Shown here: positions 24,871 to 62,147 of the stretch, one piece after another
How the letters are laid out: each line of letters opens with the position of its first letter
Numbering within the stretch: the first letter of the stretch is position 1
Assembly (NCBI GenBank): GCA_964452355.1
Contig: CAYVKV010000003.1
Span: forward strand, 31,152 to 95,151
Direction: 5' to 3'
DNA: 64,000 nt
DNA from: an uncultured Gammaproteobacteria bacterium
GTDB lineage: Bacteria > Patescibacteriota > Microgenomatia > UBA1406 > GWC2-37-13
Made by a program: the position numbers and the translations under genes
Notes under the pieces: model-generated
Told to the model about the DNA's origin: nothing
The model's input: the letters and a program-made list of their open reading frames with translations, nothing else
Database searches by the model: none

Positions 24871-26001
24871 ATGTCGAGAAAAAGCGTAATGGTCTTGTTC
24901 TCGATACTGCTGATTAGTATTGCAGTGGTCTTGATTTCATTTAGCATCCAAAAATATAGAGTTCTTACCAAGTCTCGGGCCGAAGGACAAAAAACCACTG
25001 AAATGGCTTGTAATACCACTGTCCAACTACTCTCGGATAAATGTTCATCGGGAGTTCTCAATCGAGATGTTTGCGAATTCAAAAATAACAACACAGATAC
25101 TGCACAAGGATGGACAAAATATAAAACACAGGGAGATCCAAAATATGAAAATGTGGACTACTCAAGTATGGGTGCTGGAACTATCAAAATGACTCCCAAT
25201 GGAAGCTCGACGTACTCTGCAGGAGCATATACCCAGGCTTCTGTGACACCAGAAAAAGTGTACTGTGCAAGCTGGCGATGGGGTGCACCTGGAGGACCAG
25301 GCGACCATGGTCGTACTCTCGGGATAGATCCTTATGGTGGCACAGATCCAAACTCTCCAAATGTCATCTGGGGAAACACTCATAGGGGGGCTGGTAGACA
25401 CCTTGATTATGTCCCTCCTGATGTAAATGTGGATATTAAAACAATCGCCAAAAGCACATCGATTACGGTATTTTATAAAGTGGATTACACAGGTAACTCG
25501 AATGATAGCTTGATTTATATCGATGGTATCAACCTCTATGATGAAGGAGTACCGCATTCAGCAATAGCTACGTTGACGCCAACGCCAACTCAGGATATCG
25601 GAAATCCAACACCTACTCTCACTCCTACAACGACGCCATCAACAACTCTCACTGCTACTCCTACTACATCTCCCACTGGTACTCCAATACCAACTCCTAC
25701 TCTCACCAAAACTTCGACACCTTCACCAACTCATACGCTTACCCCAACTTTGACACCAACCCTAACTCCAATACCAACTGCCATTCCAACACAAACTTCT
25801 ACACCCACACCGACAGCGACTCCAATCCCAACCAATACGCCTGTTCCAACAAGTACATTAACCCCAACCAATACGCCTGTTCCAATAAATACTCCAACAC
25901 CAATTACTCAACTTACGGTTGACAATCAAAAACCGGGAATCACTCCATGGACTCTGATATTGGTACCCATTGGATTGTTACTGCTTGGATTGCTACTATA
26001 A
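24871..26001 (+). CDS. Secreted protein (possible beta-sandwich/carbohydrate-binding-like domain) with Thr/Pro linker and the same C-terminal tail
   Basis: 376 aa. Signal anchor plus [14 protein letters not shown], a ~190 aa globular part, a TPTxTPT linker, and the tail [31 protein letters not shown]. Confidence 0.8.
25909..26001 (+). repeat. Dispersed ~93-nt repeat (second copy; the first is at 24769-24861) encoding the shared C-terminal tail
   Basis: The copies are offset by exactly 1140 nt. The first 42 nt are identical (caacttacggttgacaatcaaaaaccgggaatcactccatgg); about 9 mismatches overall by eye. Confidence 0.9.
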
Positions 26002-44630: not shown

Positions 44631-45724
44631 AAAAAATTATCGTATTCTTAAATGCATATAGTCAGGGAATAAGTGGTGCAGACAAAATTTGTATTGAAAC
44701 GTGGAAGCATTTTGATGAGAAGCATGTCACGGTCATGACATCGCGTGAAGGAAAGAACGTATGCGAAAATTTTAAACTCAAAGCGCGCTTTATCATCACC
44801 ACATCCGAACAGACTTTTCATAATCCACTCAATACCTATCTTAAACGAATCATTATTGGCATTTGGAGAGCGATTACCGCTTCAAATCAAGATGTATTGT
44901 ATTCATCATCTGACCAACTGCCTGATATTCTTCCGGCTCTGATTTTCAAACTCAGAAACAGAGATGCTCAATGGATTGTGCGTAGCTATCATATCATTCC
45001 AAAAAAACGACTCATATCCTATCTTGCTCAAAGATTTAGCTTTTTTATCATAAATATTCTTGAAGCGACAATGATCACTGCAAGCACATTGATGAAGAAT
45101 GAGTTGCTTCGGAATGGATTTCCATCAGAGCATGTTCATATTGTTTATCCGGGAATTACGATATCTAAAATGCTAAAGAGAAGAACAACAAATAAATACG
45201 AGGCAGTGTTTATGTCGAGACTTCACGAGTCGAAAGGTATTTTTGACCTTATTGATATCTGGAAAAAAGTTATAAAAAAAATGCCGAATGCTTCACTCAA
45301 AATCATAGGAACTGGTGAAAAACAGACAATTCAGAAACTAAATAATTTAATTAAGATAAATAATCTTGAAAGTACTATTACGCTTCTCGGACACCAGTCT
45401 GATGAAAAAGCAAAGTTAATTATTTCTAATTGTCATTTATTCGTATTTCCCAGTCATGAAGAAGGGTTTAGCCTGACAATCGCCGAGGTACTGCTCATGG
45501 AGATACCAATCATAACCTATGATCTGCCGATTTATCAGGATGTATTTCCCAATGCATTATCTAAGGTACCCAATGCGGATATCAATGCGTTTGCAGATCG
45601 GATTATTGATGTATTTCACAACAAACACAAGTATGATAAGAAAGTTAATCTTGGAAGAGATATGGTAAAAAAATATACATGGAAACATGCAATTGCAAAT
45701 GAACTTAGATTATTAGATTTATGA
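44627..45724 (+). CDS. Glycosyltransferase family 4 (GT-B, Glycos_transf_1)
   Basis: The ATG at 44627 forms an ATGA overlap with the upstream stop. C-terminal FVFPSHEEGFSLTIAEVLLMEIPIITYD is the EX7E motif. Confidence 0.85.
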   Translation: MKKIIVFLNAYSQGISGADKICIETWKHFDEKHVTVMTSREGKNVCENFKLKARFIITTSEQTFHNPLNTYLKRIIIGIWRAITASNQDVLYSSSDQLPDILPALIFKLRNRDAQWIVRSYHIIPKKRLISYLAQRFSFFIINILEATMITASTLMKNELLRNGFPSEHVHIVYPGITISKMLKRRTTNKYEAVFMSRLHESKGIFDLIDIWKKVIKKMPNASLKIIGTGEKQTIQKLNNLIKINNLESTITLLGHQSDEKAKLIISNCHLFVFPSHEEGFSLTIAEVLLMEIPIITYDLPIYQDVFPNALSKVPNADINAFADRIIDVFHNKHKYDKKVNLGRDMVKKYTWKHAIANELRLLDL

Positions 45725-46815
45725 GTATCATAAATAACATTCGATATACAATTCAATACATCCGAGTCACAATTATTGAATATACTTTATATGCAATAGA
45801 TGATCCGAAGCTTATTTGGAATATTCCCCGACGATTTTTTGAAGAAATCTCATTGTACGTCAAATATTGGATTGCAAAAAGTACTCATTCGAGCAAAAAT
45901 ACTCACGTCCGACAGGAGCTTTTTAAGCTTAACGCAGAGATGGAAAAAGGAGATGATCTTTATAAGCCATCTCTTATTTGGAAAGATATTTATGAGCAGT
46001 TTGATCGCGTTCTTCATGTTGAACATTTATCAAACTTTAAATCACAACGATACAATTCGCGATTTGCAGATCTGCCGCCGACTTCTCAGGATATTTACCC
46101 CCGATTTCTTTGGATCTATTGGAACAGTATTAAACAGAGAGACACATTAAACTTACTAAACACTATCCATGAGCCAAAGCTTGGAGGAGCAAAAACGTAT
46201 AAAATCGATGGGAAAGAAATAACTCACGACTTACTTCAATCTTTCGATGAATTTTATCAAATGTATCCCCACTTAAATTCTTTAAAGAATCATACTGTTA
46301 TTGCAGAGCTGGGAGCAGGGTATGGTCGACTGGGGTACGTTTTTCTCAAAGCAATGACAAATAACACCTATGTTGTCATTGATCTTCCAGGAACCTTGGT
46401 TATTGCCCAATATTACCTTTCAAAAGTCTTCTCAAATGAAAAAATATTGACGTACCAAAAAAGCAAAAAGCTCAAAAAAATAACTAAAAAAATACTCTCT
46501 CAGTATAGAATTGTATTTCTTGCCCCGTGGCAACTTCCCGATGTCGATGAAAAAGTCTTTGACTTATTTATAAATATTTATTCATTTCAAGAAATGACCG
46601 TTGACCAAATTCAAAACTACTTTCGCTTAATTGATTTAACATGTTGTCGTTTATTCTTTACCAAACAATTTACTCGTTCATACAATCCAAAAGATGAGAT
46701 TGTTATTCTGAAAAAACAGTACCCTGTCTATTCAACATGGAAAAAAATCTATGACCGTCCCTCGACAATAAGTCAAGATATTTTTGAAGCGCTCTATAAA
46801 ATTCCATCTCATTAA
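45721..46815 (+). CDS. Putative SAM-dependent (sugar O-) methyltransferase-like protein
   Basis: 364 aa with an ATGA overlap upstream. The glycine-rich IAELGAGYGRLGYVFLK...VVIDLP resembles the motif I/post-I arrangement. The family assignment is tentative. Confidence 0.45.
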   Translation: MSIINNIRYTIQYIRVTIIEYTLYAIDDPKLIWNIPRRFFEEISLYVKYWIAKSTHSSKNTHVRQELFKLNAEMEKGDDLYKPSLIWKDIYEQFDRVLHVEHLSNFKSQRYNSRFADLPPTSQDIYPRFLWIYWNSIKQRDTLNLLNTIHEPKLGGAKTYKIDGKEITHDLLQSFDEFYQMYPHLNSLKNHTVIAELGAGYGRLGYVFLKAMTNNTYVVIDLPGTLVIAQYYLSKVFSNEKILTYQKSKKLKKITKKILSQYRIVFLAPWQLPDVDEKVFDLFINIYSFQEMTVDQIQNYFRLIDLTCCRLFFTKQFTRSYNPKDEIVILKKQYPVYSTWKKIYDRPSTISQDIFEALYKIPSH

Positions 46816-48625: not shown

Positions 48626-49888
48626 ATGAAGCCGAAACTTCTCAAGTTTGCAAAAAACACTTTTATTCAGGGAGGATTCCTCATAACCGCCTCAAGTTTT
48701 ATTGGAGGTTTTTTGAATTATCTTTTTAATATTTTTGCCGGTCGCGCACTTGGCCCTGAAGGGTATGGTGAGATTGCAGCGCTCTTTGCTTATATGGCTG
48801 TTTTATCGATTCCTATGGGGACGATCACCTCGCTTCTCATTCAAAAAATAGGAAGCGCCGAAAATCCAAATGAATATGCGGTTGCCGTTCATACGTGGAT
48901 TTTAGATAAATCAAAAAAATGGTGGTTCTTGCTATTGGGAACTGTTGCAATAACCCCATTCATTCCTGCACTCACCAATCTGACTCCACTCAGTGGATAT
49001 ATACTTCCAGTAATAATGGTTCTGTCGTTTGCCGGCTCCTACTACACGGGAGCGCTACAAGGACTTCATATATTCTTTTGGTTTGCAATAATTTCAATTG
49101 GAAGTGTCGCGTTAAAACTTGCCGGTTCTCTCCTGGCATTATACGGATTTGGCGGGCTTGAAATGGTTCTCATATTTCTGGTTGTTTCTGGGGTGGCGAG
49201 CCTTCTGATGAGTCATATTGTTTTTGTGCGGCAAATTCAGAAAAAAGGGGACACAACAATCATCAAATCAAAACGAATCAGAGATATTTTCAAGGATCGT
49301 CAACTGTGGTTGACCACTGGAGTGACCGGGGCGCTCGCGCTTATCAATAATGTTGATATCATGTTTGTTAAAAAAGTTTTTGATGCAGAGCAGGCGGGGA
49401 TTTATAGTTCATGGTCATTATTTGCCAAAATTATCTTTTATATACTGGGTCCGATCTTGACAATGGCCTTCATATTCTTTTCAAGCAAAAAACACGAAAT
49501 CAAACATCAAATTGTGTTTATCGGCTCATTTATATTCCTTGCAGCAATTGGGGTTATTGCCAATTTGGGATATGGCGCGTTTGGCAGACAAATTGTAGAC
49601 AATCTCTTTGGGCAAAAATTTTGGAGCGTCATTCCGTACCTTGAATGGGCTGCATATTTTGGTACCGGATACACCATGATGACGTTTATGACATTTTACT
49701 ATTTGGCAAAAAAAAGCAAACTTTCGCTTCTACCGGTTGCACTGTTTCCCGTGTATTTAGTAATTCTTTTACTGTTTTCCAAAATTCTTCCTGATGTCAT
49801 GTACATAAGCACCATATATACGTACGTAGTCATTACCATCTTTCTTTTAGTATTTTTCAAAGACCGATTGTTATTTTTAATTCGGTAA
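48626..49888 (+). CDS. Wzx-like oligosaccharide flippase (MOP superfamily)
   Basis: 420 aa with ~12 predicted TM helices. The N-terminus KNTFIQGGFLITASSFIGGFLNYLFNIFAGRALGPEGYGEIAALFA is typical of polysaccharide-biosynthesis flippases. Confidence 0.75.
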   Translation: MKPKLLKFAKNTFIQGGFLITASSFIGGFLNYLFNIFAGRALGPEGYGEIAALFAYMAVLSIPMGTITSLLIQKIGSAENPNEYAVAVHTWILDKSKKWWFLLLGTVAITPFIPALTNLTPLSGYILPVIMVLSFAGSYYTGALQGLHIFFWFAIISIGSVALKLAGSLLALYGFGGLEMVLIFLVVSGVASLLMSHIVFVRQIQKKGDTTIIKSKRIRDIFKDRQLWLTTGVTGALALINNVDIMFVKKVFDAEQAGIYSSWSLFAKIIFYILGPILTMAFIFFSSKKHEIKHQIVFIGSFIFLAAIGVIANLGYGAFGRQIVDNLFGQKFWSVIPYLEWAAYFGTGYTMMTFMTFYYLAKKSKLSLLPVALFPVYLVILLLFSKILPDVMYISTIYTYVVITIFLLVFFKDRLLFLIR

Positions 49889-49895
49889 ATTTGGT

Positions 49896-50564
49896 ATGCA
49901 AAATGTTGGATTTAATTCATTGAGAATACGCAGCCTCTTCTTGATTGCAGTGCTCTTATTAAGCTTATTGCTGCCATCAATGAATAGATCAATCATCCAA
50001 GCAGCAGATACACCAACGCCGTCGCCAATAACTCCAACAGTGACTCCAATTACTCCAACCGCAACGCCAATAACTCCAACAGTGACTCCAATTACTCCAA
50101 CCGCAACGCCAATAACTCCAACAGAAACGCCAACAAATACTCCAACACATTCTCCAACCCCTACCAATCAACCGGCAAATGTTGCCGTTGCTACAGCAAC
50201 TCCAACCGAAACCCCAACGCCATCTCCAACTCCTAAAGAAAAATCGACAGATATAACGCCCCCTGACTTGATCGATTCTGAATTACCGGAAAATACAATG
50301 ATTGGCCCACCAGCACCGCGTCAGATGATGAGACAACCGGGACAACAAAATCCTCAGGGACAAGTAAAATCTTCATTTGATGAAGGGGGTCCCGACAATA
50401 TTTTGGATAGTAAGCCAAAAGGTGGTAGTAGTGGGGTAATAAAAATCTTTGTCACGGTAATCGCGCTTACCATAGCAGGAGTAGTCGGCTGGATTGCCAT
50501 TCAATCAAATAAACCTATGGACATTGCAAAAGATAATGACGAGAGCGAGCAACCCATAGAATAG
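49896..50564 (+). CDS. Secreted Thr/Pro-repeat protein with QGQVKS motif and C-terminal TM anchor
   Basis: 222 aa. Signal peptide (..SIIQA|AD), (PITPTVTPITPTAT)n repeats, NPQGQVKSSF, and the TM VIKIFVTVIALTIAGVVGWIAI plus an acidic tail. Starts 8 nt after the flippase stop. Confidence 0.75.
   Translation: MQNVGFNSLRIRSLFLIAVLLLSLLLPSMNRSIIQAADTPTPSPITPTVTPITPTATPITPTVTPITPTATPITPTETPTNTPTHSPTPTNQPANVAVATATPTETPTPSPTPKEKSTDITPPDLIDSELPENTMIGPPAPRQMMRQPGQQNPQGQVKSSFDEGGPDNILDSKPKGGSSGVIKIFVTVIALTIAGVVGWIAIQSNKPMDIAKDNDESEQPIE
50024..50125 (+). repeat. 42-nt tandem repeat (~2.4 units) in the Thr/Pro linker
   Basis: 50024-50065 is identical to 50066-50107, and a partial third unit begins at 50108. 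Each unit encodes PITPTVTPITPTAT. Confidence 0.9.
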
Positions 50565-50656
50565 ATTTTATCCTATAAAAATTCATTCAAAGGAAGTCAA
50601 CTCATCGTCTTTTCGATCAAATATTGTTATTCCTATACAAATCTTGTATCCTATTT

Positions 50657-53049
50657 ATGATGACTACAAGTGTAAAAATTATTTTTAAGATATTCCTTAT
50701 TGGTCTATTCTTCCTTTTTATACCAAGAGAGATATATATGGCGGTGAAATAAAATGGTATCCGATCACAGAGCATAAAGAAATACAAATTAAGCAGAGTA
50801 CCGATAAATCCTTCTTTACCAAAACGGTGAAGCTGCCTTGGAAATCAGGAAAGATTGTATTAAGTGGAAGCAAGGACGGGACTATGCCAGCAAATATCGG
50901 ATGGCACATTGAAATAAAAAATGCAGCAAGTACTTTTTTATACTCAAATTCGGGCGGTTTAAATGGGTGCGAATATGTTCTTATGGAACCACTTCCCATA
51001 ACTCACCTCCTCCATCGAGGGGAAAATACGATCATCATTACATTCTTAAATCCATGCAATCATGCATTAACCGCTCAGGATATTGGACCGCTCTATATTG
51101 TTCATTTTGACGATTACATTCCCGCAGATAAACCCTTTTTGGACCTCCCGTGGGATTACACCGCAGATGGTAAAAAATTTGAAGACGTCGCGTATCGATT
51201 GAGTTCAAATATCGACCATCAACAACCGCTTCTTGGATCAGAGTTTTATGAATCAGAGATTTATTCTCAGTCAGCGATTCTTTCTCAACAAAGAATAAAA
51301 CAGTCTCGTATCTATTCATCTCATGATGGGTATGACTGGTCGACGGATGCGGGCGTACATTATCTGGACCCAGTACTTGCAGCGGCTCCCGGATGGGCTT
51401 CATATCATTATGAAAAAAGCACCGCAAATGCTATTTTTATCGATCATGAAAACGGATATCAAACACGCTATTACTTTCTTTCACCTGAAGATCTTGTTAC
51501 GCATTCGGCAGAAAAGGTCTGGGTTCAGGATCGCCAACCGATAGGAAGAGTGGGAATTTCCAGCGACGACATTGCTGAGGAAAATTCAGGTGCGCATATC
51601 CATTTCACCGTTATCAAAGACAAAAATGGTGATGGGAACTTTGATGATAATATCGTCGATGGGATCGTCGACCCCTTTGGAGATGAGATGGTATCAGAAG
51701 ACGCAGAGATTTCACCGCTATTATTTCAAAATACTGATCGGACGGGACGAAGAAGTGATTACCTCTGGAAAAAATCTTTAAAAAACAATACCCAGACAAT
51801 CTCATCAGAAAGGGTTGGCGATAGCACGTTTTTCAATAGTGCTTCAAATAGTAGCTTTACCTTTCCCAAGAAGCTCATTTCAAAAGATGTCATCCTTGAA
51901 ACTCTTGCAAAACCCGAAGTGGAAAATCCGGTCATTGAAAACAACTCAGATGAATCATTTCAGATGGTCGGCAATCGGGTTGCGGTGACCATTTCCGATG
52001 CTTACGGAAACCATATCACCGGATTCAACAAGCCATTTACCATTTCCTTCCAACTGAATGACGATGACATTGCTCGATATGACAAACAAACGCTTTCCAT
52101 TTACTCAAGTAATGACGGAGCTATTTGGAAACAAGAAGATACAAATATTGACTTTGAGAGAAATACAGCCTCAATAACCATAGCACATCTTACTGAATTT
52201 GCACTGATTGGCGAACAACTTGATACCACACCTCCCGTCACAACGGTTAATATCAGCGGGACACTTGATGGAGTAAATTATATCGCGCCCATAGAAATTA
52301 CAATGGGAGCCTCAGATGAACCTTCTGGGCAAAGCCTTGGAGTCGCTTTTATAGCCTACAAACTAAACGACGGACCATGGACGCACTATTCAATACCGCT
52401 ATCCCTTTCTGAAGCGGGGAATTATGTACTGGAATATTACTCTGAAGATGGCGATGGCAATGTCGAAACGACCAAACAAATGTCTTTTTCAATGATTAAC
52501 TCAACTCCAACAAATACACCGACACCGACGCTCACTTTCACACCGACAGCTACCCCAGTGACACCAGCTGCGCCGACGCATACGCCGATACCGACGGTCA
52601 CACCGATAACGCCGGGCGCACCTACCCATACGCCGACAGTGACGCTCACTTTCACACCGACACCGACGCTTAGTAATACACCAACTCCAACTCAGACCCT
52701 CACTCCAACACTGACGCTAACTGCTACTCCTACCAAATCGCCAACACCAACGCTTACACCGACAAGAACTCCAACCACTGCGCGCTTTTCAAATACGCCG
52801 ACACCCACGCCAACAAGTACCCCAGAACCCGTGAAAACGTTGGGGACATCTTCAATAGAAACAAATACAACTGATCCAACCAATCAAGGAGAGGTTAAGT
52901 CGATTTTTTTTGAAAATGACCCTGCTTCAAACTCTTCCAGTGATTTAACAAGACAAAAAAAACATATCGACTCGCTTATTTTTGCACTCATCATATGGAG
53001 TGTTACGGGTACGGGAGCATGTATCTATGTGATTAAGTATATTGAGTAA
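50657..53049 (+). pseudogene. M23-peptidase surface protein, paralog 1, split by a 2-nt frameshift between the signal peptide and the mature part
   Basis: ATG 50657..TAA 50752 encodes MMTTSVKIIFKIFLIGLFFLFIPREIYMAVK*. The frame open from 50689 continues ..YGGEIKWYPITEH.., homologous to the paralog N-termini. Deleting one AT from (AT)4 at 50732-50739 fuses the two frames with exact alignment length. Confidence 0.7.
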
Positions 53050-53115
53050 CTGCATTTCTCTTTCTGTTTTGAAATGTAGTTACAAAATGGTCGATTTAAT
53101 TGGTAGGATAAGGAT

Positions 53116-55368
53116 ATGAATCGTTCTCAGATAGTGAGTGCTATTCTTATTTGCCTTACTGTTTTGTCTACTGCACCAATCATATTTGGGATAGAAACGC
53201 GTTCATATCTTGTGACCGATTATCAGGTAGTCACTAAAAATCCACGTCTCGACAAAGTTGTGTACCACAAAAGCATGATGATTCCCTGGAAATCGGGAAA
53301 AGTGATCATCAGTGGCAATCCGGAGGGCACCGCATCAGCAAATATTGGATGGGAAATCCAACTGTCTAACAATCAAAAAAGCTCATCTGCTTTTATCTAC
53401 AACAATGCAGGAAATTCCTTTTCCTGTCTTGACAAAGAAATGCCGCCACTTACGATGACACATCTCATGAATGAGGGAGATAACTCAATTCTTGTCCGTT
53501 TCTACCGTCCATGTAATAGTTCATACACTTCGCTCGATATCGGACCCGTATACATTGTCCACTTTGATGATTCTGAACCATCAGATGAACCATTTTTAGA
53601 TCTTCCCTGGGATTATGCGGCTGATTCTAAGAGGTTTGAGGAAGTGGCACTCCGGGCAATTTCAACCTTTGATCATGCATATCCATTGTCAAGCACGCTC
53701 ATAAGTGAACCTGATGAATATGAAAACGGCACGGTATTTTTTGATGGAAGCGTTGAGATCAAAAAGAATACTTCTTCCCATGATGGCTATGACTGGGCAG
53801 CTCATGCCGGAGTCATGTTGAATGATTCAGTACTTGCAGCAGCTCCGGGTTTTGCGACTTATCACTCGGATAAAAAGAGTGGAAATGCGATATTTATCGA
53901 TCACGACAATGGATACCAGACCCGATACTATCATCTGTCTGCAGAAAATCTCGTGACCATCTCTGCAACTCCGATTTGGGTTCTTGACCGTCAAAAGATT
54001 GGTGAGGTGGGATTTACCGGTTCAATCAATACATATGAACCACCGGGCGCACATATCCATTTCATGGTCGTGAAAGACAAAAATGGAAATGGATCATTTG
54101 ATGACAATATTCCCGATGGAATTGTGGATCCTTTTGGATGGCAGGGGAGTGGGGAAGACCCATGGAGATCATATTCATTTACACTCAATGGAAAGGAACA
54201 GACTGGAATACGAAGTACATATTTGTGGAAAAAATCTCTGAAACCAAGCTTGCAGTCAGTGACTTCCGGAGGAGCAAAGATCAAAAATAGTGCGACAAAT
54301 ACTACATTTGAGTTTCCCTCAAACATTGTGTCTCAAGATACCATTTTCTCTTCAAGGGCACGTGCAATGGTACTCAATCCCAAGATCGGTGGTCAAACAT
54401 CGGATACCTTCATATCAATTGGAAGTGTCGCATCAGCAGATATTACAGACGGTTTTGATAAGTTCATTACAACATTCTCCAAAAATTTTATCCTTACCTT
54501 CTCCTTTCAGACCAATGATGTACTCCGCTATAATCCCAACTCCCTCTCTGTATATTCTCAAACAGGTGATGAAGACTGGAAGCTGGAAGAAACAATCCGC
54601 GATGATACAAAAAAGGAAGCGTCAGCGCAGATCAACCATTTTTCAAAGTTTGCCTTATTGGGAGAAAAGCTTGATTCGATTGCCCTGGTTACTACCATTG
54701 AGGTGAGTGGCACAAAAAAAGGAGAGTACTTTACCTCCCCGGTCACCATGACGTTAAGCGCTATCGATACACCGACCGATACCAGTTTGGGGGTACTTTA
54801 TTCAGGGTACAGTATCAATGGGAATACATGGAAAAAATATTTGACTCCCACACCCATATCGGATGAAGGCACCTATTCGGTTGAATATTTTTCTGAAGAT
54901 GGCGATGGCAATGTCGAAGTCACCAAAGCACTTTCATTTGTTATCAATTTTAATCCTCCAACACCCACGTCAACGGTCATGCCAACATCAACAGCAACAC
55001 CGACAGCAACTCCAACCCAGACACCTACACAAACACCCACACCTACCGCTTCATCAAACTCAGGAGGTACAAGCACAACACATACCCCAACTCCTCCTTT
55101 TTCTCCGACAAAAGTACCAACCACTCAGATAGTAAAGAAGGTGAAAAGCCCTATCCCAACAACGCCTCGTGAGTCAGACAACCAAGGAGAAGTGAAGTCT
55201 GCCTATGCTGCCGAAAATGGGGAAGAGGTCCTGCCAGAGGAAGAATTATTTCCATCAATAAGTTTTAGAAACGTATTTGTCATGATTGTCGTACTGATCA
55301 CCGCACTAATACTTGTTTGGTACAAAATACATAAAGAGCATTTTAGACGCGAAAAAACAACTCAATAA
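53116..55368 (+). CDS. M23-peptidase surface protein, paralog 2 (signal peptide, N-domain, M23 domain, Ig-like domain, Thr/Pro linker, QGEVKS motif, TM anchor)
   Basis: 750 aa. M23 motifs SSHDGYDW (HxxxD) and GAHIHF (HxH), YFSEDGDGNVE in the Ig-like module, a TP linker, DNQGEVKS, and the TM VFVMIVVLITALILVWY plus a basic tail. Confidence 0.85.
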   Translation: MNRSQIVSAILICLTVLSTAPIIFGIETRSYLVTDYQVVTKNPRLDKVVYHKSMMIPWKSGKVIISGNPEGTASANIGWEIQLSNNQKSSSAFIYNNAGNSFSCLDKEMPPLTMTHLMNEGDNSILVRFYRPCNSSYTSLDIGPVYIVHFDDSEPSDEPFLDLPWDYAADSKRFEEVALRAISTFDHAYPLSSTLISEPDEYENGTVFFDGSVEIKKNTSSHDGYDWAAHAGVMLNDSVLAAAPGFATYHSDKKSGNAIFIDHDNGYQTRYYHLSAENLVTISATPIWVLDRQKIGEVGFTGSINTYEPPGAHIHFMVVKDKNGNGSFDDNIPDGIVDPFGWQGSGEDPWRSYSFTLNGKEQTGIRSTYLWKKSLKPSLQSVTSGGAKIKNSATNTTFEFPSNIVSQDTIFSSRARAMVLNPKIGGQTSDTFISIGSVASADITDGFDKFITTFSKNFILTFSFQTNDVLRYNPNSLSVYSQTGDEDWKLEETIRDDTKKEASAQINHFSKFALLGEKLDSIALVTTIEVSGTKKGEYFTSPVTMTLSAIDTPTDTSLGVLYSGYSINGNTWKKYLTPTPISDEGTYSVEYFSEDGDGNVEVTKALSFVINFNPPTPTSTVMPTSTATPTATPTQTPTQTPTPTASSNSGGTSTTHTPTPPFSPTKVPTTQIVKKVKSPIPTTPRESDNQGEVKSAYAAENGEEVLPEEELFPSISFRNVFVMIVVLITALILVWYKIHKEHFRREKTTQ

Positions 55369-55438
55369 ATGTAATACATATGTAGTTACATATGAATTAC
55401 TCTTGCATTCAGAGACCGGACTTGCTACCTTATAAATA

Positions 55439-57706
55439 ATGACTTGGTGTCTTTCACACACCATAAAAACTCTCATCATAATTTTAGTATTCTTTTGGTA
55501 TGCTCCAGAAATATATGCCTTTGAAATCCGATCGTATCTGGTGACTGATCATCGAGTAATTACCAAAAACCCCTATCTGGATAAGGTTGTCTTTTATACC
55601 AATGTCTCACTCCCCTGGAAATCAGGAAGGGTCGTCGTGAGTGGAAGTCCCGATGGCACAAAACCGGCAAATATCGGATGGGAGCTCCAGATCTACAATA
55701 GCAAAAGCAGCTCAAAATCATTTCGCTACAACAACGCAGATCAAATATTTACCTGTCTCGACAAAGATATGCCGCCACTCAATATTTCTCACCTGTTCTT
55801 GGAAGGTGACAATACCTTTTTAGTCCGCTTTTACCGACCATGCAACAATGCGTTTTCATCACTTGATATCGGACCCATATACTTTGTACATTTTGATGAC
55901 TATGAGATCTCGGATGAACCATTTTTGGATCTTCCGTGGGATTATGCAGGAGACGACATGAGATTCGAGGAAGCTGCCCTTCGGATGAGCTCGTATTTTG
56001 ATCATGAGTATCCTTTGTTGAGCACGAGTTTGAGAGAGCCAGATGCGACAGATCAAACTACTATAATCTTTGATAATTTATTAAGAGTAAATAAAGAATA
56101 TTCTTCACATGACGGCTATGACTGGGCACGATCTGCAGGGGCAGTTCTGAATGACCCAGTGCTTGTCGCAGCCAGCGGTTGGGCGACGTATCATAGCAAT
56201 AAATATATTGGCAATGCGATCTTCATCGATCACGAAAATGGGTATCAAACGAGATATTATCATCTTTTGGAAAAGAATCTTTTCACCAAATCATCATCAA
56301 AAACATGGGTAAATGACCGTCAAAAAATTGGAGAGGTCGGTTTCTCCGGCAATGTACAACCATCTGGAAGTAAGGGCGCACATATCCATTTCATGGTCGT
56401 GAAGGACAAAGATGGAAATGGATCATTTGATGATAATATCCCCGATGGAATTGTTGATCCCTTTGGATGGCACGGGAGTGGAGAGGATCCATGGAGATCA
56501 TATTCATTTACCCTGGGCGGAGAAGAACGAACAGGTATGAGAAGTACATACCTATGGATTAAATCTCTGAAAGATGGATCCTCAACCCTCACCTCTGACG
56601 GAGGAACGTTTACCAATAGTGGCTCAAATACGACATTTAACTTCCCATTTCAAGTTGTCTCCCACGATGCAGTCTTTGATTCGGTCACCAGACCTCCGGT
56701 CAGCAAACCAATCATAAGTGGCATCGTCGAGGAAACTCTTGCATCAGTCGGAAATACCGTCACCGCAATCGTGCGGGACGGTTTTGACAATCTGATCACT
56801 TTTTTTACCAAAAAATTTACCCTCATTTTTTCATTTGAGGATACGGATATCAAAAGATTTGATCCAAATACGCTATCGATATATTCAAGCTCCGATGGAA
56901 AGACATGGCAAAAAGAAGATACCGTGATAGATACTGCAAAAAAACAAGCAACCGCAAAACTCAACCATATGACAGAGTTTGCACTCATGGGGAAAAAACT
57001 GGACATACTCGCACCCGTCACCACAATTGAAATAAACGGAACAAAAGAAGGAGGCTACTACACCACACCTGTCCAGTTTATTTTAAACGCACAGGATGAA
57101 CCGAAAGATACCAGTCTTGGTATTTTATATACCGGATACCGTATCAATGATGAAGTGTGGACGACGTATTCCAGCCCGGTGACACTATCTGATGAAGGGA
57201 ACTATACCATCGAGTACTACTCAGAAGATGGCGACGGAAATGGAGAGACAGCAAGCCAAGTGAGTATTACTATTGACTTCACCCCTCCTACTCCTACCCT
57301 GACTATCGAACAAACCCAAACATCCACTCCAACGCCAACTCCTATACCTCAATCGACGATAACTCAAACACCGACAATGACTCAAACTCCAACGTATACG
57401 ATTGCTCCTACTCCTACTCATACTCCCACAACGCTACCAACTCCAACACAAACCCCCAAACCTCTCGCGACTCAAACGACTGTCCCAACTCCAAAAGCAT
57501 CCATTCCTGACGATCAAGGAGAAGTGAAATCCGTATTTGCTTCCGAAACAGGAGGAACTGATTCAGACGCAATACAATTACACCCTTCATTCAGTTTCAG
57601 AAACATCTTTGTCATGTTGGTTTTTTTGACAACAGCACTCTTTCTCATATGGTATCGTTTTAGCAAACGATCATGTAATGGTAAACGCCTGATAAAAAAG
57701 ATATAA
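55439..57706 (+). CDS. M23-peptidase surface protein, paralog 3 (same architecture)
   Basis: 755 aa. SSHDGYDW, GAHIHF, YYSEDGDGNGE, a TP linker, DDQGEVKS, and the TM IFVMLVFLTTALFLIWY plus a basic tail. Confidence 0.85.
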   Translation: MTWCLSHTIKTLIIILVFFWYAPEIYAFEIRSYLVTDHRVITKNPYLDKVVFYTNVSLPWKSGRVVVSGSPDGTKPANIGWELQIYNSKSSSKSFRYNNADQIFTCLDKDMPPLNISHLFLEGDNTFLVRFYRPCNNAFSSLDIGPIYFVHFDDYEISDEPFLDLPWDYAGDDMRFEEAALRMSSYFDHEYPLLSTSLREPDATDQTTIIFDNLLRVNKEYSSHDGYDWARSAGAVLNDPVLVAASGWATYHSNKYIGNAIFIDHENGYQTRYYHLLEKNLFTKSSSKTWVNDRQKIGEVGFSGNVQPSGSKGAHIHFMVVKDKDGNGSFDDNIPDGIVDPFGWHGSGEDPWRSYSFTLGGEERTGMRSTYLWIKSLKDGSSTLTSDGGTFTNSGSNTTFNFPFQVVSHDAVFDSVTRPPVSKPIISGIVEETLASVGNTVTAIVRDGFDNLITFFTKKFTLIFSFEDTDIKRFDPNTLSIYSSSDGKTWQKEDTVIDTAKKQATAKLNHMTEFALMGKKLDILAPVTTIEINGTKEGGYYTTPVQFILNAQDEPKDTSLGILYTGYRINDEVWTTYSSPVTLSDEGNYTIEYYSEDGDGNGETASQVSITIDFTPPTPTLTIEQTQTSTPTPTPIPQSTITQTPTMTQTPTYTIAPTPTHTPTTLPTPTQTPKPLATQTTVPTPKASIPDDQGEVKSVFASETGGTDSDAIQLHPSFSFRNIFVMLVFLTTALFLIWYRFSKRSCNGKRLIKKI

Positions 57707-57726
57707 ATAAATTATTGAACAAAAAT

Positions 57727-58254
57727 ATGAAATATAGAAAAATAACTAAAAAACACCATATCATTTTTCTCATTGCACTGACAGCAATATTTATGCTTGC
57801 ATGGGGTATTTTTTACCAAAATTCATTGTCTGCAAAAAGAAAAATTCAGATAGAAAAGACTCAGGATTTTTACAAGTCAAAAATTTTAAAATATCAATTT
57901 GCTTATCCTGAAAAATATAAGCTATCAGAAACGACAAATACTATAACAATTCGTGATGATAGCAAATCTATAGTTATTGATAAAATATACGGCTATTCAA
58001 ATTCTACAAAAGAGTATATAGAAGACTTGGTTTTAAAAAATAAACTAGAAATATCTCAACTCAACAATGAATCGGAATATGGATTTGATGTATACACGAT
58101 CAATTTTGAAATTAATGAATCTCAAGAAATTCTTTTCATAAAAAACATAGACACGGATACATTCGTCTCCATCTCCACCTCCTCGCCCGAGCTCTATGAT
58201 GAGCTTGAGCAGATCGCTGCTTCATTTGAGTACCTTGGCAATAGCGAAAACTAG
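57727..58254 (+). CDS. Hypothetical membrane-anchored protein
   Basis: ATG at 57727 (the track start 57715 is TTG). N-terminal TM IIFLIALTAIFMLAWGIFY and a ~140 aa extracytoplasmic domain with no recognisable motifs. Confidence 0.5.
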   Translation: MKYRKITKKHHIIFLIALTAIFMLAWGIFYQNSLSAKRKIQIEKTQDFYKSKILKYQFAYPEKYKLSETTNTITIRDDSKSIVIDKIYGYSNSTKEYIEDLVLKNKLEISQLNNESEYGFDVYTINFEINESQEILFIKNIDTDTFVSISTSSPELYDELEQIAASFEYLGNSEN

Positions 58255-60428: not shown

Positions 60429-62147
60429 ATGGTGAAGCATACTAAAACTATCAAAACAGATACAAAAGGCGTGAAAATAAAATCTCCTTCTGAAATCACC
60501 ATTGTCGTTGGTTATGCACCGATTGAATCAAAAAAAGGAGTGGCGCTTCTTTCCCAAAATAGACAGTTTCAATACTTCAACGCAAAAACATACATTTATC
60601 CAATGGTTCCGGCATATGCCGCCTCAAACCTCAAAAAACATGGATACAACACCTATTGGATGGACGGAATTGCAGAGGAGAAGACCTTTGACCAATGGTT
60701 TGATGAACTTTCTGCAACCAGTCCTGATTATCTGATGGTTGAGACAAAGTCTCCAATCGTAAAAACACATTGGAAACAGATTAAAGATCTCAAGAAAAAA
60801 CTACCACACCTCAAGCTCATCTGGGTGGGCGATCACATCAGCTATCTTCCAATGGAACTATTTGAAAATAGCCCGGTTGATTATGCCATCACCGGAGGAG
60901 ATTATGATTTTGTCGTGGTGAATTTGCTCAATCATATTTATAAAGGCGAACCACTTGAGAGCGGTGTCTATTGGCGAGAAGACAATAAAGATATCAATGT
61001 TCCAAAAGAACAAAGAAGAGCAAAGAAAATAGAATCAGGAGAAACTATTTATAACTCAGGACCTGCATCGCTCAAACACAAACTTGACGATCTTCCGTTT
61101 GTCGACCGAGATCTCACCAAATGGGAGCTCTATGCATATGACAATGGAAACTACAAATATACCCCCGGAACATATATGTATAGCGGCCGAGACTGTTGGT
61201 GGAATCGTTGCACCTTTTGCGTATGGGACCATACCATAAATCCAATCGGATCATATCGCAGCTTTTCCCCTGAGCGACTCTTCGCAGAAGTCAAACACGT
61301 GGTAGATAACTATGGTATCAAAGAAATATTTGATGATGCAGGAACCATGTTTATCGGTCCAAAACTCAAAAAATTCTGCAATTTGCTTATTGACAGTGGC
61401 TATAACAAAAAAGTGGTGTATGGCTGTAATATGCGATTCAATGCCTTAAATCAAGAATATTACAATCTTATGGGCAAGGCAAACTTCCGATTCATTCTGT
61501 ATGGCATGGAGTCAGGCAACCAAAAAACGCTCGACAAGCTCGACAAGGGCACAAAGGAAGCAGATGCCATAAACGGTCCGAAGATGGCAAGTAAGGCGGG
61601 CCTTGACCCTCACATCACGATCATGTTGGGATATCCATGGGAGACCTATGAAGAAGCGAAAAGAACCATTAATATCGCAAAGTATGCATTCAAAAAAGGG
61701 TACTACGAGACAATGCAGGCAACGATTGTGATTCCGTATCCTGGCACGCCACTGTACAAGGAGTGTAAAGAAAAGGGATGGCTTCTCACCGACGATTATG
61801 ATGATTTTGATATGCGACGACCCGTTATGAAGACGCCCTTTCCTCAAGAGAAGATACTGGAACTCGAACAAGACCTCTATTCAGTATTTATGACTCCGCA
61901 ATATATAACGAGAAAAGTTCTTGAAATTCGCAGCTTTCATGATTTCAAATACCTCTTTTACATGGGATGGAAGCTGATCGGACATCTTCTGGACTTTGAT
62001 CCAAATCAGACCAAAGTAAACTTCTTTTCATTTGCTTTTATCAAAAATGCAGGAAAAGCTTTGTTTGGTCATTTCTTCCGACCAAACACTTCAGTAGATC
62101 GTGAGAAGGATGCAATAAAACTCGAAGAGAGTGCGATGAATTTGTAG
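60429..62147 (+). CDS. B12-binding-domain radical SAM protein (class B-like)
   Basis: 572 aa. N-terminal Rossmann-like B12-binding-type domain (LKLIWVGDHISYLP...YAITGGDYD), then the radical SAM core with GRDCWWNRCTFCVW. Confidence 0.85.
   Translation: MVKHTKTIKTDTKGVKIKSPSEITIVVGYAPIESKKGVALLSQNRQFQYFNAKTYIYPMVPAYAASNLKKHGYNTYWMDGIAEEKTFDQWFDELSATSPDYLMVETKSPIVKTHWKQIKDLKKKLPHLKLIWVGDHISYLPMELFENSPVDYAITGGDYDFVVVNLLNHIYKGEPLESGVYWREDNKDINVPKEQRRAKKIESGETIYNSGPASLKHKLDDLPFVDRDLTKWELYAYDNGNYKYTPGTYMYSGRDCWWNRCTFCVWDHTINPIGSYRSFSPERLFAEVKHVVDNYGIKEIFDDAGTMFIGPKLKKFCNLLIDSGYNKKVVYGCNMRFNALNQEYYNLMGKANFRFILYGMESGNQKTLDKLDKGTKEADAINGPKMASKAGLDPHITIMLGYPWETYEEAKRTINIAKYAFKKGYYETMQATIVIPYPGTPLYKECKEKGWLLTDDYDDFDMRRPVMKTPFPQEKILELEQDLYSVFMTPQYITRKVLEIRSFHDFKYLFYMGWKLIGHLLDFDPNQTKVNFFSFAFIKNAGKALFGHFFRPNTSVDREKDAIKLEESAMNL

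What the first reader, a model, noticed from the sequence alone, without database searches (positions are those of the whole stretch)
49896..57706. Array of four anchored stalk proteins sharing a TP-linker/QGEVKS/TM module, three carrying M23 peptidoglycan-hydrolase domains
Four consecutive co-oriented genes end with the same module. It comprises a Thr/Pro linker, (D/N)QG(E/Q)VKS(x)(F/Y) (50355-50372, 52885-52902, 55183-55200, 57515-57532), 15-30 acidic/polar residues, one TM helix and a short cytoplasmic tail. Three are ~750 aa paralogs with several parts in order. First comes a signal peptide, then a conserved two-Cys N-domain (PWKSGK..SG.P.GT..ANIGWE..RPCN..LDIGP.YIVHFDD). A LytM/M23 metallopeptidase core follows (SSHDGYDW = HxxxD; GAHIHF = HxH), then middle beta-rich regions and an Ig-like module (..YYSEDGDGNVE..). 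A C-terminal anchor holds a wall-cutting enzyme on a long, probably glycosylated stalk pointing outward. If the organism is an episymbiont, this suggests enzymes aimed at a host cell wall rather than its own septum. The QGEVKS motif is not a sorting signal known to me.
Basis: partly seen in the sequence, partly recalled or inferred. Interest (0 to 1): 0.8.

Follow-up and report, generated by a model that had tools for sequence, protein, structure and literature searches.

The report
Self-cleaving tethered wall-cutting enzymes, CPR
A candidate-phyla-radiation bacterium (closest to Roizmanbacteria) carries a tandem set of membrane-tethered peptidoglycan-cutting enzymes that also contain a previously unnoticed self-cleaving "release" domain like the one in animal adhesion receptors, and they sit beside a conserved partner gene, so they are probably enzymes the cell can display and then let go.

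Summary
The four co-oriented genes and their shared C-terminal module are real. The module is a Thr/Pro linker, G(E/Q)VKS, a 23-24 residue spacer and one TM helix. Genes g3 and g4 are complete M23 endopeptidases with all catalytic residues. As assembled, g2 has lost its signal peptide to a 2-bp frameshift and has Phe in place of one catalytic His.

First, the "middle beta-rich region" carries an invariant H-x-(S/T)-x-F-A-L-M motif at a predicted beta-turn. It is present in 111/111 aligned homologues and 78/78 genome loci, and the region has ZU5-like fold hits. This is the signature of the ZU5/GPS (GAIN, "MAIN") cis-autoproteolytic domain, recently shown to release surface-anchored bacterial enzymes. 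Second, the next gene (57715-58254) lies directly downstream of the M23 gene in 55 of 81 related loci. It encodes a membrane-anchored protein with a PsbP/Tsi3-like fold.

The exact QGEVKS module is narrow: 12 clusters among 1.84 billion representatives, all either this M23 family or small companion proteins. It matches no curated sorting signal. More distant relatives have xVLGx in its place.

The best reading is a stalk-tethered, self-nicked, releasable M23 hydrolase with a partner protein. Whether it targets the cell's own wall or a host wall is unresolved. I rate it a new variant of a known kind, of moderately high interest.

The parts
48626..49888 (+). MOP/Wzx-like flippase gene directly upstream of the array
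   Evidence: Pfam Polysacc_synt, 33 bits against a cut-off of 28.2. A homologue lies within 300 bp upstream of the M23 gene or array in 12 related loci.
49896..50564 (+). g1: small stalk-only protein. It has a signal peptide, a Thr/Pro linker (49995-50267), QGQVKS (50355-50372), a 24-aa spacer, a TM helix (50445-50501) and an acidic tail.
   Evidence: It has orthologues upstream of the M23 genes in L002, L003 and L005. Relatives P0125 and P0129 add an OmpL47-type domain before the linker. A perfect 42-bp x 2.4 tandem repeat lies at 50023-50124.
50657..50739 (+). Orphaned signal-peptide ORF of g2 (MMTTSVKIIFKIFLIGLFFLFIPREIY), ending in an (AG)3(AT)4 tract (50726-50739) that carries a 2-bp frameshift
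   Evidence: Sequence read. The intact orthologue P0012 starts MMTTRVNVIFKIFLIGLFFLFVPTEIYGDEIKWYP. DNA alignment with L003 shows two extra bases in the window.
50827..53049 (+). g2: divergent M23 paralogue, 43-46% identical to g3 and g4. Its parts are M23 (51319-51624), HLTEFALI (52186-52209), an OmpL47-type domain (52294-52491), a linker (52480-52881), QGEVKS (52885-52902) and a TM helix (52972-53034). It is probably inactive or a pseudogene.
   Evidence: Pfam M23 at 42 bits. It has RYYFL instead of RYYHL. It has no in-frame signal peptide. The g2-type orthologue in L003 also has the Phe.
53116..55368 (+). g3: complete M23 protein. Its parts are M23 (53776-54081), HFSKFALL (54637-54660), an OmpL47-type domain (54745-54945), QGEVKS (55183-55200) and a TM helix (55273-55323).
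   Evidence: It is identical to P0007.
55439..57706 (+). g4: complete M23 protein. Its parts are a signal peptide, a two-Cys beta-sandwich N-domain (55520-55918), M23 (56105-56410), a ZU5/GPS-like domain ending in HMTEFALM (56966-56989), an OmpL47-type domain (57104-57274), a Thr/Pro linker (57254-57496), QGEVKS (57515-57532) and a TM helix (57605-57655).
   Evidence: AF2 model with pLDDT 85.6. The ectodomain (residues 28-620) is confident, residues 625-719 are disordered and a TM helix spans 720-753. Foldseek returns M23 and ZU5-UPA hits. Motif conservation is shown.
57715..58254 (+). ds179: conserved downstream partner. It is a type-II membrane protein with an extracytoplasmic PsbP/Mog1-like domain and an invariant C-terminal SISTSSPELYDELEQIAASFEYLG.
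   Evidence: It is adjacent (<=300 bp, nearly always on the same strand) to the M23 gene in 55/81 loci. It is the top neighbour family, found in 43 loci with a median gap of 22 nt. AF2 pLDDT is 80. Foldseek hits include PsbP, BT_1490, Tsi3, DUF1795 proteins and DcrB. It has no significant Pfam or NCBIfam match.

Best explanation
**What the genes encode.** g3 and g4 encode Sec-exported, type-I membrane-tethered M23 (LytM-type) peptidoglycan endopeptidases. g2 would too if its frameshift were repaired, but it probably lacks catalytic activity.

**Domain order, from N to C terminus**
- signal peptide
- lineage-variable two-Cys beta-sandwich, a presumed targeting domain
- complete M23 catalytic domain
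- ZU5/GPS-superfamily (GAIN-like, "MAIN") domain
- OmpL47-type Ig-like domain
- Thr/Pro stalk of about 80-130 residues
- G(E/Q)VKS juxtamembrane motif
- 23-24 residue spacer
- TM helix

**Proposed mechanism (inferred).**
1. The ZU5/GPS-like domain cuts its own chain between H-[L/M/F] and [T/S], at M511|T512 in g4.
2. The N-terminal enzyme fragment then stays on the stalk only through the non-covalent beta-sheet.
3. It can be shed by force or on substrate binding.

**Companion genes.**
- The downstream membrane-anchored PsbP/Tsi3-fold protein ds179 is a dedicated partner, either an inhibitor/immunity protein or a regulator/chaperone.
- The small g1 protein is a stalk-plus-anchor derivative of the same family.

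**What is shown and what is inferred.** The domain content, the residues, the conservation and the synteny are shown. Self-cleavage, release, stalk glycosylation, the role of ds179 and the target are inferred.

**Target.** My estimate is about 50% own envelope (remodelling or cell separation), about 35% a host or neighbour wall, and the remainder other.
For: **M23 domain**
- Pfam scores are above the cut-off.
- HxxxD, Y-x-H-L and HxH align with ShyA.
- Foldseek hits ShyA, Csd1/2/3, DipM, EnpA and zoocin with probability 1.0.

**Autoproteolytic domain**
- [N/D]-H-[L/M/F]-[T/S]-x-F-A-[L/V]-[M/F] is conserved: H in 110/111, S/T in 111/111 and F in 110/111.
- H-x-[S/T]-x-F is present in 78/78 full-length family ORFs from GTDB loci.
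- In the AF2 model the motif lies in the turn between strands 503-510 and 513-520.
- Foldseek hits ZU5-UPA structures (3g5b, 4d8o) with probability 1.0.
- The best PDB sequence hit for the domain profile is the GAIN domain of ADGRB2, with its HLS-TFAVL site aligned in register. This hit is weak (E 0.47).

**Literature**
- Microbial GAIN ("MAIN") domains cleave at HX(S/T) and release surface-anchored enzymes. Their architecture is signal peptide, payload, MAIN, anchor. Peptidase_M23 is among the co-occurring domains, and DPAM labels these domains ZU5 or GPS (bioRxiv 10.64898/2026.05.12.724683).
- ZU5, GPS and Nup98 autopeptidases form one superfamily that is also seen in bacterial surface enzymes (PMC3482391).

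**Tether**
- The linker, motif and spacer are disordered in the model and are followed by a TM helix.
- The motif-to-TM spacing is constant.

**Partner and context**
- ds179 adjacency is shown, and its fold.
- The same four-gene order occurs in L003, and a three-gene version in L002.
Against: **Autoproteolysis**
- It has not been shown experimentally.
- No Pfam ZU5 or GPS hit appears at E<=1.
- Foldseek TM-scores to ZU5 structures are low for the whole-protein query.
- No GAIN structure is among the top 50 Foldseek hits.
- The GAIN sequence hit is not significant on its own (E 0.47).
- 10 of 78 homologues have Ala or Thr at P1, which is atypical.

**ds179.** Its fold is a generic protein-binding fold. 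The Tsi3 similarity (E 2.4e-3) is weaker than the PsbP similarity.

**Other gaps**
- g2 is frameshifted and lacks a catalytic His, so the "three enzymes" may be two.
- No evidence bears on glycosylation.
- No evidence places the enzyme at host contacts.
Confidence: 0.65

Rival explanations
1. The Thr/Pro-linker, QGEVKS and TM module is a new protein-sorting signal. A dedicated sortase-, exosortase- or rhomboid-like enzyme cleaves it and transfers the ectodomain to the wall or S-layer.
For: - The motif is invariant while the flanking linkers are unalignable.
- It is shared by an otherwise unrelated small protein family.
- The motif-to-TM distance is fixed at 23-24 residues.
- An analogous xVLGx / xVLAx motif precedes C-terminal TM helices in distant family members and in unrelated secreted proteins of Curtissbacteria loci.
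Against: - No curated CTERM or LPXTG model matches.
- Known sorting motifs abut the TM helix, but this one is 23-24 residues away.
- g1 has an acidic tail, not a basic one.
- No sortase, exosortase or rhombosortase family appears among the roughly 45 window ORFs scanned.
- The exact module occurs in only 12 clusters of 1.84 billion, confined to this family and its small companion.
Confidence: 0.15
2. The proteins are non-catalytic LytM-type regulators of the EnvC/NlpD/SpoIIQ type. They would activate or scaffold other hydrolases rather than cut peptidoglycan.
For: - g2 and its orthologues replace the catalytic His of Y-x-H-L with Phe.
- Degenerate LytM proteins such as DipM and SpoIIQ are among the fold hits.
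Against: - g3 and g4 keep HxxxD, Y-x-H-L and HxH.
- All 71 of 78 full-length homologues in which that motif could be read keep His there, apart from the one g2-type gene.
- No FtsEX or amidase genes recur in the neighbourhood.
Confidence: 0.08
3. The array is a host-directed weapon-plus-immunity system. The M23 head is delivered to a host cell wall at episymbiotic contacts and released there by MAIN cleavage. ds179 protects the producer's own wall.
For: - The inferred architecture is releasable, as in the best explanation.
- Stalks are about 80-130 residues long.
- The N-terminal domain is lineage-variable and is replaced in many homologues, whose HMM matches begin at about position 160.
- The gene has expanded into paralogues in Roizmanbacteria-like genomes.
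- The downstream co-directional partner has fold similarity to the T6SS immunity protein Tsi3.
Against: - The family is usually single-copy: 68 of 83 sequences examined (82 fetched loci plus the window) hold one family ORF. It is widely conserved at about 40-45% identity, like a core gene.
- It is embedded in glycan-biosynthesis clusters, not conflict loci.
- One ds179 serves three paralogues.
- The host is unknown.
- The PsbP-like fold is generic.
Confidence: 0.3

Closest known systems
MAIN (microbial GAIN-like) domain surface proteins, e.g. B. subtilis YfkN (Brogan & Rudner, bioRxiv 10.64898/2026.05.12.724683)
   Same: - The order is the same: signal peptide, enzymatic or adhesion payload, autoproteolytic beta-sandwich with HX(S/T) in a beta-turn, then a surface anchor.
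- Peptidase_M23 is listed among payloads (31 occurrences among ~15,000 proteins).
- DPAM labels the domain ZU5 or GPS, matching the fold hits obtained here.
   Different: - The anchor here is a TM helix after a Thr/Pro stalk and a G(E/Q)VKS motif. It is not LPXTG, SLH or a cell-wall-binding domain.
- The organism is a CPR bacterium. That survey used RefSeq Select and does not mention Patescibacteria in its text or in the supplements held.
- These proteins are small (about 750 aa against a mean of 158 kDa).
- A dedicated downstream partner gene is conserved.
- Cleavage is untested here.
GAIN/GPS domain of adhesion GPCRs and polycystin-1; ZU5 domains of PIDD/UNC5 (ZU5 superfamily, PMC3482391)
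   Same: - The site consensus H-L-(T/S)-x-F-A-(V/L)-(L/M) is nearly identical to the GPS/Stachel sequence.
- A conserved Trp lies upstream of the site.
- The site sits in a beta-hairpin turn.
- Foldseek gives ZU5-UPA hits.
   Different: - The GPS disulfide cysteines are absent.
- No helical GAIN_A subdomain is evident.
- Sequence similarity is not significant (E 0.47).
- What follows is an Ig domain and a single TM helix rather than a 7TM receptor.
Active M23/LytM endopeptidases (ShyA, LytM, lysostaphin, zoocin A, EnpA)
   Same: - The catalytic HxxxD, Y-x-H-L and HxH set is present.
- The fold matches.
- The Pfam score is above the cut-off.
   Different: - The N-terminal two-Cys beta-sandwich is new.
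- The conserved PFLDLPWDY...FDHEYPLL extension has no counterpart.
- No SH3b, LysM or OapA targeting domains are present.
- The enzyme is C-terminally membrane-tethered.
Sortase / exosortase / archaeosortase C-terminal sorting signals
   Same: A conserved short motif is followed by a C-terminal TM helix and a short tail, and it is placed after a low-complexity linker.
   Different: - The motif is 23-24 residues from the TM helix.
- No curated model matches.
- No cognate enzyme was found.
- The tail is acidic in g1.
Hydrolase plus membrane-partner pairs (Tse3-Tsi3, SleB-YpeB, lysostaphin-Lif)
   Same: A co-directional, immediately downstream, extracytoplasmic partner gene is conserved with the hydrolase.
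   Different: - The partner has a PsbP/Mog1-like fold with no sequence family assigned.
- Its function is untested.
- One partner serves three paralogues.

Membership tests
Peptidase M23 (PF01551), catalytically active LytM-type | Profile score above Pfam gathering threshold | tested here: met
   g2, g3 and g4 score 42.1, 48.7 and 49.7 bits against a cut-off of 28.7.
Peptidase M23 (PF01551), catalytically active LytM-type | Zn ligands HxxxD and the second His of HxH; catalytic His of HxH | tested here: met
   SHDGYD and GAHIHF are present in g2-g4 and align with ShyA HNGTD and GPHLHY. H224, D228, H315 and H317 are >=90% conserved in 111 sequences.
Peptidase M23 (PF01551), catalytically active LytM-type | Catalytic His of the Y-x-H-L motif (LytM His260 equivalent) | tested here: met
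   Met in g3 and g4 (RYYHL). Not met in g2, which has RYYFL, as do its orthologues P0012 and L003 5176-7587.
Peptidase M23 (PF01551), catalytically active LytM-type | Muralytic activity | not testable with these tools
   This needs zymography or muropeptide analysis.
ZU5/GPS superfamily autoproteolytic domain (GAIN / MAIN) | Conserved H-X-(S/T) with hydrophobic X | tested here: met
   H in 110/111, L/M/F in 111/111 and S/T in 111/111. H-x-[S/T]-x-F is found in 78/78 genome loci, 10 of them with Ala or Thr at X.
ZU5/GPS superfamily autoproteolytic domain (GAIN / MAIN) | Site lies in a tight turn between two strands of a beta-sandwich | tested here: met
   In the AF2 model (pLDDT >95 here), strands span 503-510 and 513-520, with M511 and T512 in the turn.
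ZU5/GPS superfamily autoproteolytic domain (GAIN / MAIN) | Fold or sequence similarity to solved ZU5 / GAIN_B domains | tested here: inconclusive
   Foldseek probability is 1.0 to ZU5-UPA (3g5b, 4d8o), but TM-scores are low for the multidomain query and no GAIN entry is in the top 50. The top profile hit is ADGRB2 GAIN with the site in register, but E is 0.47. No Pfam ZU5 or GPS hit was found.
ZU5/GPS superfamily autoproteolytic domain (GAIN / MAIN) | Architecture: signal peptide, payload, autoproteolytic domain, surface anchor | tested here: met
   compared with the description.
ZU5/GPS superfamily autoproteolytic domain (GAIN / MAIN) | Actual self-cleavage with fragments remaining associated | not testable with these tools
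   This needs expression of the wild type against T512A, followed by Edman sequencing or mass spectrometry.
Known C-terminal sorting signals (LPXTG, PEP-CTERM, PGF-CTERM, GlyGly-CTERM and relatives) | Match to a curated sorting-domain model | tested here: not met
   An NCBIfam scan at E<=1 returns no CTERM or LPXTG model for any of the four proteins.
Known C-terminal sorting signals (LPXTG, PEP-CTERM, PGF-CTERM, GlyGly-CTERM and relatives) | Signature motif immediately precedes the TM helix, followed by a basic tail | tested here: not met
   The spacer is 23-24 residues in all four. The tails of g3 and g4 are basic, g1's is acidic and g2's is 4 residues long.
Known C-terminal sorting signals (LPXTG, PEP-CTERM, PGF-CTERM, GlyGly-CTERM and relatives) | Cognate sorting enzyme encoded in the genome or neighbourhood | tested here: not met
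   None was found among the window ORFs scanned. Only 64 kb of the genome is visible.
OmpL47-type beta-barrel/Ig-like domain (NF047446) | Score at or above the curated cut-off (40 bits) | tested here: met
   g2, g3 and g4 score 47.9, 40.0 and 44.5 bits.
Effector-immunity pair (Tsi3-like immunity) for ds179 | Immunity-protein fold and direct inhibition of the adjacent hydrolase | tested here: inconclusive
   Foldseek hits Tsi3 at E 2.4e-3 (TMt 0.44), but PsbP and BT_1490 score better at E ~1e-4. Binding and inhibition are untested. Adjacency is strong.

The most novel reading that the evidence does not exclude
Microgenomates (CPR) bacteria share a conserved two-gene device. One gene encodes a GAIN-like, self-nicked, force-releasable M23 endopeptidase with an exchangeable targeting head. 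It is displayed on a stalk, possibly glycosylated, that is long enough to clear the cell's own wall. The other gene encodes a membrane-bound immunity or control protein. Together they would breach the host's peptidoglycan at episymbiotic contact sites. The Roizmanbacteria-type tandem array would then be a diversified arsenal, and the small stalk-only protein an accessory. This would be the first candidate host-wall-opening machinery common to a large CPR class. It would also be a prokaryotic use of the adhesion-GPCR release principle in cell-cell parasitism.
Probability: 0.25. Interest if true: 0.85.

Novelty: new variant of a known kind. Interest (0 to 1): 0.6.

Why it matters
CPR/Patescibacteria are mostly uncultured episymbionts, and how they remodel their own envelope or open a host's is largely unknown. 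This family is widespread in Microgenomates and is annotated only as "M23 family metallopeptidase" or hypothetical.

Recognising an adhesion-GPCR-like self-cleavage site in it, together with a dedicated partner gene, gives a concrete and cheaply testable model. The tests are a T512A mutation, Edman sequencing, zymography and a pull-down.

It would also extend the newly described microbial GAIN (MAIN) release mechanism in three ways:
- to CPR bacteria
- to membrane-anchored Thr/Pro-stalk proteins
- to peptidoglycan hydrolases with a cognate partner

The juxtamembrane G(E/Q)VKS / xVLGx motif at a fixed distance from the membrane remains unexplained.

Tried and rejected
- **Word-index search with the C-terminal module profile.** It returned only one fragment, P0121. 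The exhaustive HMMER search replaced it.
- **Source record.** P0011 is not on record, and P0007 is found only on a 5-kb Logan contig. Cluster look-up gave no names. The organism is therefore inferred from the best loci, which are Roizmanbacteria.
- **Exact 27-mer search of metagenome contigs.** This was meant to check the g2 frameshift in other assemblies and gave 0 hits. Alignment to L003 was used instead.
- **N-domain.** It has no Pfam or NCBIfam hit. Its profile against PDB gives only a weak, probably spurious NisI match at E 0.027. The fold affiliation is left open.
- **ds179.** It has no Pfam or NCBIfam family.
- **Promoter and terminator scan of the array.** Counts equal the shuffled expectation, so it is uninformative.
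- **Rfam scan of the window.** It found nothing.
- **Docking of the motif onto a folded domain.** I considered that QGEVKS might dock as a beta-strand. AF2 gives pLDDT 31-41 there and no docking, so this is rejected for lack of support.
- **EnvC-like regulators.** This reading is rejected for g3 and g4 because their catalytic residues are intact.

Full report
**Observation**

The region holds four co-oriented ORFs:
- g1, 49896-50564, 222 aa
- g2, 50827-53049, 740 aa
- g3, 53116-55368, 750 aa
- g4, 55439-57706, 755 aa

A six-frame scan finds QG(E/Q)VKS at exactly the four reported positions and nowhere else in the 64 kb. Each motif follows a Thr/Pro/Ser-rich linker, whose Thr+Pro+Ser fraction is 0.50-0.66. 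Each is followed by a 23-24 residue polar spacer and one C-terminal hydrophobic helix. The spacer length is the same in all four genes even though the spacer sequences differ.

The three long proteins are 43-57% identical to one another. They score above the Pfam cut-off for Peptidase_M23. Their YYSEDGDGNVE module is an OmpL47-type domain, NF047446, at or above its cut-off. No NCBIfam sorting-signal model matches any of the four.

**Catalytic competence**

Alignment with Vibrio ShyA puts SHDGYD on HNGTD, RYYHL on RYLHL and GAHIHF on GPHLHY. g3 and g4 therefore have the full M23 set, and these positions are at least 90% conserved in 111 family members.

g2 differs in two ways.
- It has RYYFL, and so do its orthologues P0012 and the g2-type gene of L003.
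- Its signal peptide, MMTTSVKIIFKIFLIGLFFLFIPREIY starting at 50657, is in another frame. Compared with the intact L003 orthologue, the window has two extra bases inside an (AG)3(AT)4 tract at 50726-50739.

As assembled, g2 is therefore unexported and probably inactive. The frameshift could reflect a pseudogene, phase variation or an assembly error, and I cannot tell which.

**Organism and family**

Window genes include a Mur ligase, gyrase, tRNA synthetases, a type IV pilin-like protein and a large glycan-biosynthesis cluster from about 34.2 to 62.1 kb.

More than 337 homologues exist, and where named they are Microgenomates. The names include Woese-, Levy-, Curtiss-, Gottesman-, Davies- and Roizmanbacteria, usually labelled "M23 family metallopeptidase" or hypothetical. 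In one genome per GTDB species, the best loci are Candidatus Roizmanbacteria, at 71% identity.

Most loci hold one copy: 68 of the 83 sequences examined (82 fetched loci plus the window). Tandem arrays occur only in close relatives.
- L003 has the same order as the window: small protein, g2-type, g3-type, g4-type, all after the same Wzx-like gene.
- L002 has the small protein plus the g3- and g4-types.

The conserved core runs from PFLDLPWDY through the OmpL47-type domain. Both ends vary between lineages:
- The two-Cys N-domain is present in about half of the members.
- Members also end differently: in a TM helix, in ...LEYSY, or in ...VPHDQ.

**The missed domain**

AF2 with a 111-sequence alignment gives a confident ectodomain (mean pLDDT 85.6, residues 28-620 mostly above 90). 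The linker, motif and spacer (625-719) are disordered, and a TM helix spans 720-753.

Foldseek returns the expected M23 structures. It also returns ZU5-UPA structures (UNC5b 3g5b, ankyrin-B 4d8o) at probability 1.0.

In that region the family has an almost invariant [N/D]-H-[L/M/F]-[T/S]-x-F-A-[L/V]-[M/F]-[G/A]:
- H is present in 110/111.
- The hydrophobic P1 residue is present in 111/111.
- S/T is present in 111/111.
- F is present in 110/111.

In the window this reads HLT in g2, HFS in g3 and HMT in g4. All 78 full-length family ORFs from the genome loci keep H-x-[S/T]-x-F. In the model the motif lies in the turn between strands 503-510 and 513-520.

From established knowledge, this is the GPS/Stachel consensus of adhesion GPCRs (HL|T-x-FAVLM) and the HFS site of ZU5 and Nup98 autopeptidases. 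A profile of residues 346-526 searched against all PDB sequences gives the GAIN domain of ADGRB2 as its best hit, with HLS-TFAVL and the upstream Trp aligned in register. At E 0.47 this is suggestive only.

**What is known about this kind of domain**

Zhang et al. 2012 united ZU5, GPS and Nup98 autopeptidases. They noted them in large bacterial surface proteins that carry enzymatic domains (PMC3482391).

A May 2026 preprint (Brogan & Rudner, 10.64898/2026.05.12.724683) reports the following:
- Microbial GAIN-like "MAIN" domains cleave at HX(S/T), and the fragments stay associated.
- The proteins have the order signal peptide, payload, MAIN, anchor.
- The authors propose that force releases the payload.
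- Peptidase_M23 is among the co-occurring Pfam domains (31 among ~15,000 proteins).
- DPAM labels the domain ZU5 or GPS.
- The survey used RefSeq Select and mentions neither Patescibacteria nor TM-helix anchors.

The window proteins fit that architecture. They differ in their anchor, in their host lineage and in having a conserved partner gene.

**The partner**

The next gene (57715-58254, 179 aa) has a homologue within 300 bp of the M23 gene, nearly always on the same strand, in 55 of 81 related loci. It is by far the most recurrent neighbour, found in 43 loci with a median gap of 22 nt. This holds whatever C-terminus the M23 protein has, so the link is to the conserved core rather than to the QGEVKS module.

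It has an N-terminal TM helix with a basic N-terminus, which makes it a type-II membrane protein. Its extracytoplasmic alpha/beta domain is modelled at pLDDT 80. Its nearest folds are PsbP/Mog1-like proteins (BT_1490 and PsbP, E ~1e-4). More weakly, it resembles the T6SS immunity protein Tsi3, DUF1795 chaperones and DcrB.

Its invariant residues cluster in the last strand and the C-terminal helix, which suggests a conserved interface. It has no significant Pfam or NCBIfam match.

The other recurrent neighbours are glycan-biosynthesis genes (GT2, GT4, a methyltransferase, a Wzx-like flippase and a dehydratase). No FtsEX or division genes recur.

**The C-terminal module**

An exhaustive HMMER search of 1.84 billion representatives with the module profile finds 12 clusters. 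They are this M23 family plus small companion proteins of 79-290 aa.

Some of the companions (P0125, P0129) consist of a signal peptide, an OmpL47-type domain, a Thr/Pro linker and the module. g1 is therefore a reduced stalk-and-anchor relative of the C-terminal part of the M23 proteins.

More distant family members have xVLGx in the same place, for example GEVLGT in P0027 and KVLGEVKSV in P0013. Unrelated secreted proteins in Curtissbacteria loci have xVLG/xVLA, a spacer, a TM helix and then WYRK.

The motif is thus a lineage variant of a broader, undescribed juxtamembrane feature of Microgenomates. Its distance from the membrane, the lack of model matches and the absence of a sorting enzyme in view argue against a sortase-type signal. 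Its function remains unexplained.

**Mechanism and rivals**

The best-supported model is a Sec-exported M23 endopeptidase displayed on a flexible stalk of about 80-130 residues. A ZU5/GPS-type domain nicks the chain, so the catalytic head is held non-covalently and can be shed. A dedicated membrane partner accompanies it.

Domains, residues, conservation and synteny are shown. Cleavage, release, glycosylation, the partner's role and the target are inferred.

The choice between self-wall and host-wall targets is not resolved.
- Single-copy, class-wide conservation and the glycan-cluster context favour a housekeeping envelope role.
- Four features favour an outward-directed role: the exchangeable N-terminal head, the paralogue expansion, the releasable design and an immunity-like downstream gene.

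Three rival readings are scored separately in the report: a sorting signal, non-catalytic regulators, and a weapon-plus-immunity system.

**Verdict**

The system is a new variant of a known kind, namely MAIN/GAIN-type releasable surface enzymes combined with M23 hydrolases. It is of moderately high interest and easy to test.

Noticed in passing
window 57715-58254: The gene just outside the finding's end encodes a type-II membrane protein with a PsbP/Mog1/Tsi3-like ectodomain and an invariant C-terminal ...STSSPELYDELEQIAASFEYLG. It is the most conserved neighbour of the M23 family, adjacent in 55/81 loci.
   Followed up: yes
window 50657-50826: g2's signal peptide is out of frame because of two extra bases in an (AG)3(AT)4 tract (50726-50739), as seen against intact orthologues. 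This could be a pseudogene, slipped-strand phase variation or an assembly error.
   Followed up: partly
window 23548-24861 and 24871-26001: Two adjacent secreted proteins carry long Thr/Pro linkers but a different C-terminal module: [14 protein letters not shown] followed directly by a TM helix that ends the protein (...[15 protein letters not shown]). They also share an N-terminal anchor motif, Q(R/K)Y(Q/R)VLT(S/K)SRAE. They have no Pfam or NCBIfam hit. This looks more like a classical motif-adjacent sorting signal than QGEVKS does.
   Followed up: partly
window 50023-50124: A perfect 42-bp tandem repeat (2.4 copies, 100% match) lies inside g1's Thr/Pro linker and encodes TPITPTVTPITPTA units. 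It suggests recent or ongoing variation in stalk length.
   Followed up: no
window ~34238-62147: A large surface-glycan cluster surrounds the array. It includes several GT2 and GT4 glycosyltransferases, a GT2-methyltransferase fusion and a NanM-like sugar O-methyltransferase (45721-46815). It also includes a C-methyltransferase, a DegT aminotransferase, epimerases/dehydratases, a hexapeptide acyltransferase, a TPP enzyme, a B12-binding radical SAM protein (60429-62147) and a Wzx-like flippase. Similar genes recur near the M23 gene in other Microgenomates loci.
   Followed up: partly
P0125, P0129 (relatives of g1); L003 4256-5122; L008 9890-10768; L010 416-1291: Relatives of the small companion protein keep an OmpL47-type domain. 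Their mature N-terminus (...TFAIDTTAPVTT...) resembles the sequence just after the predicted cleavage site of the M23 proteins (T-x-FALMGExxDTxAPxTT). They therefore look like free copies of the post-cleavage stalk fragment.
   Followed up: no
L020 1359-2195, L023 4708-5511, L030 5670-6503: Non-M23 secreted proteins in Curtissbacteria loci end with a Ser/Pro-rich linker, (P/S)(E/K/Q)VL(A/G)(E/Q)(K/Q)D, a polar spacer, a TM helix and then LWY(R/S)K. This points to a wider, undescribed juxtamembrane motif in Microgenomates.
   Followed up: partly
window 6105-7844 (- strand): A 579-aa polytopic membrane protein has no Pfam or NCBIfam match. Its N-terminal region resembles GT-C/ArnT-like glycosyltransferases only by eye. 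It could be a candidate protein or glycan transferase.
   Followed up: no
window 693-1247: A type IV pilin-like protein with an N-terminal methylation motif (PF07963) lies near the start of the window.
   Followed up: no
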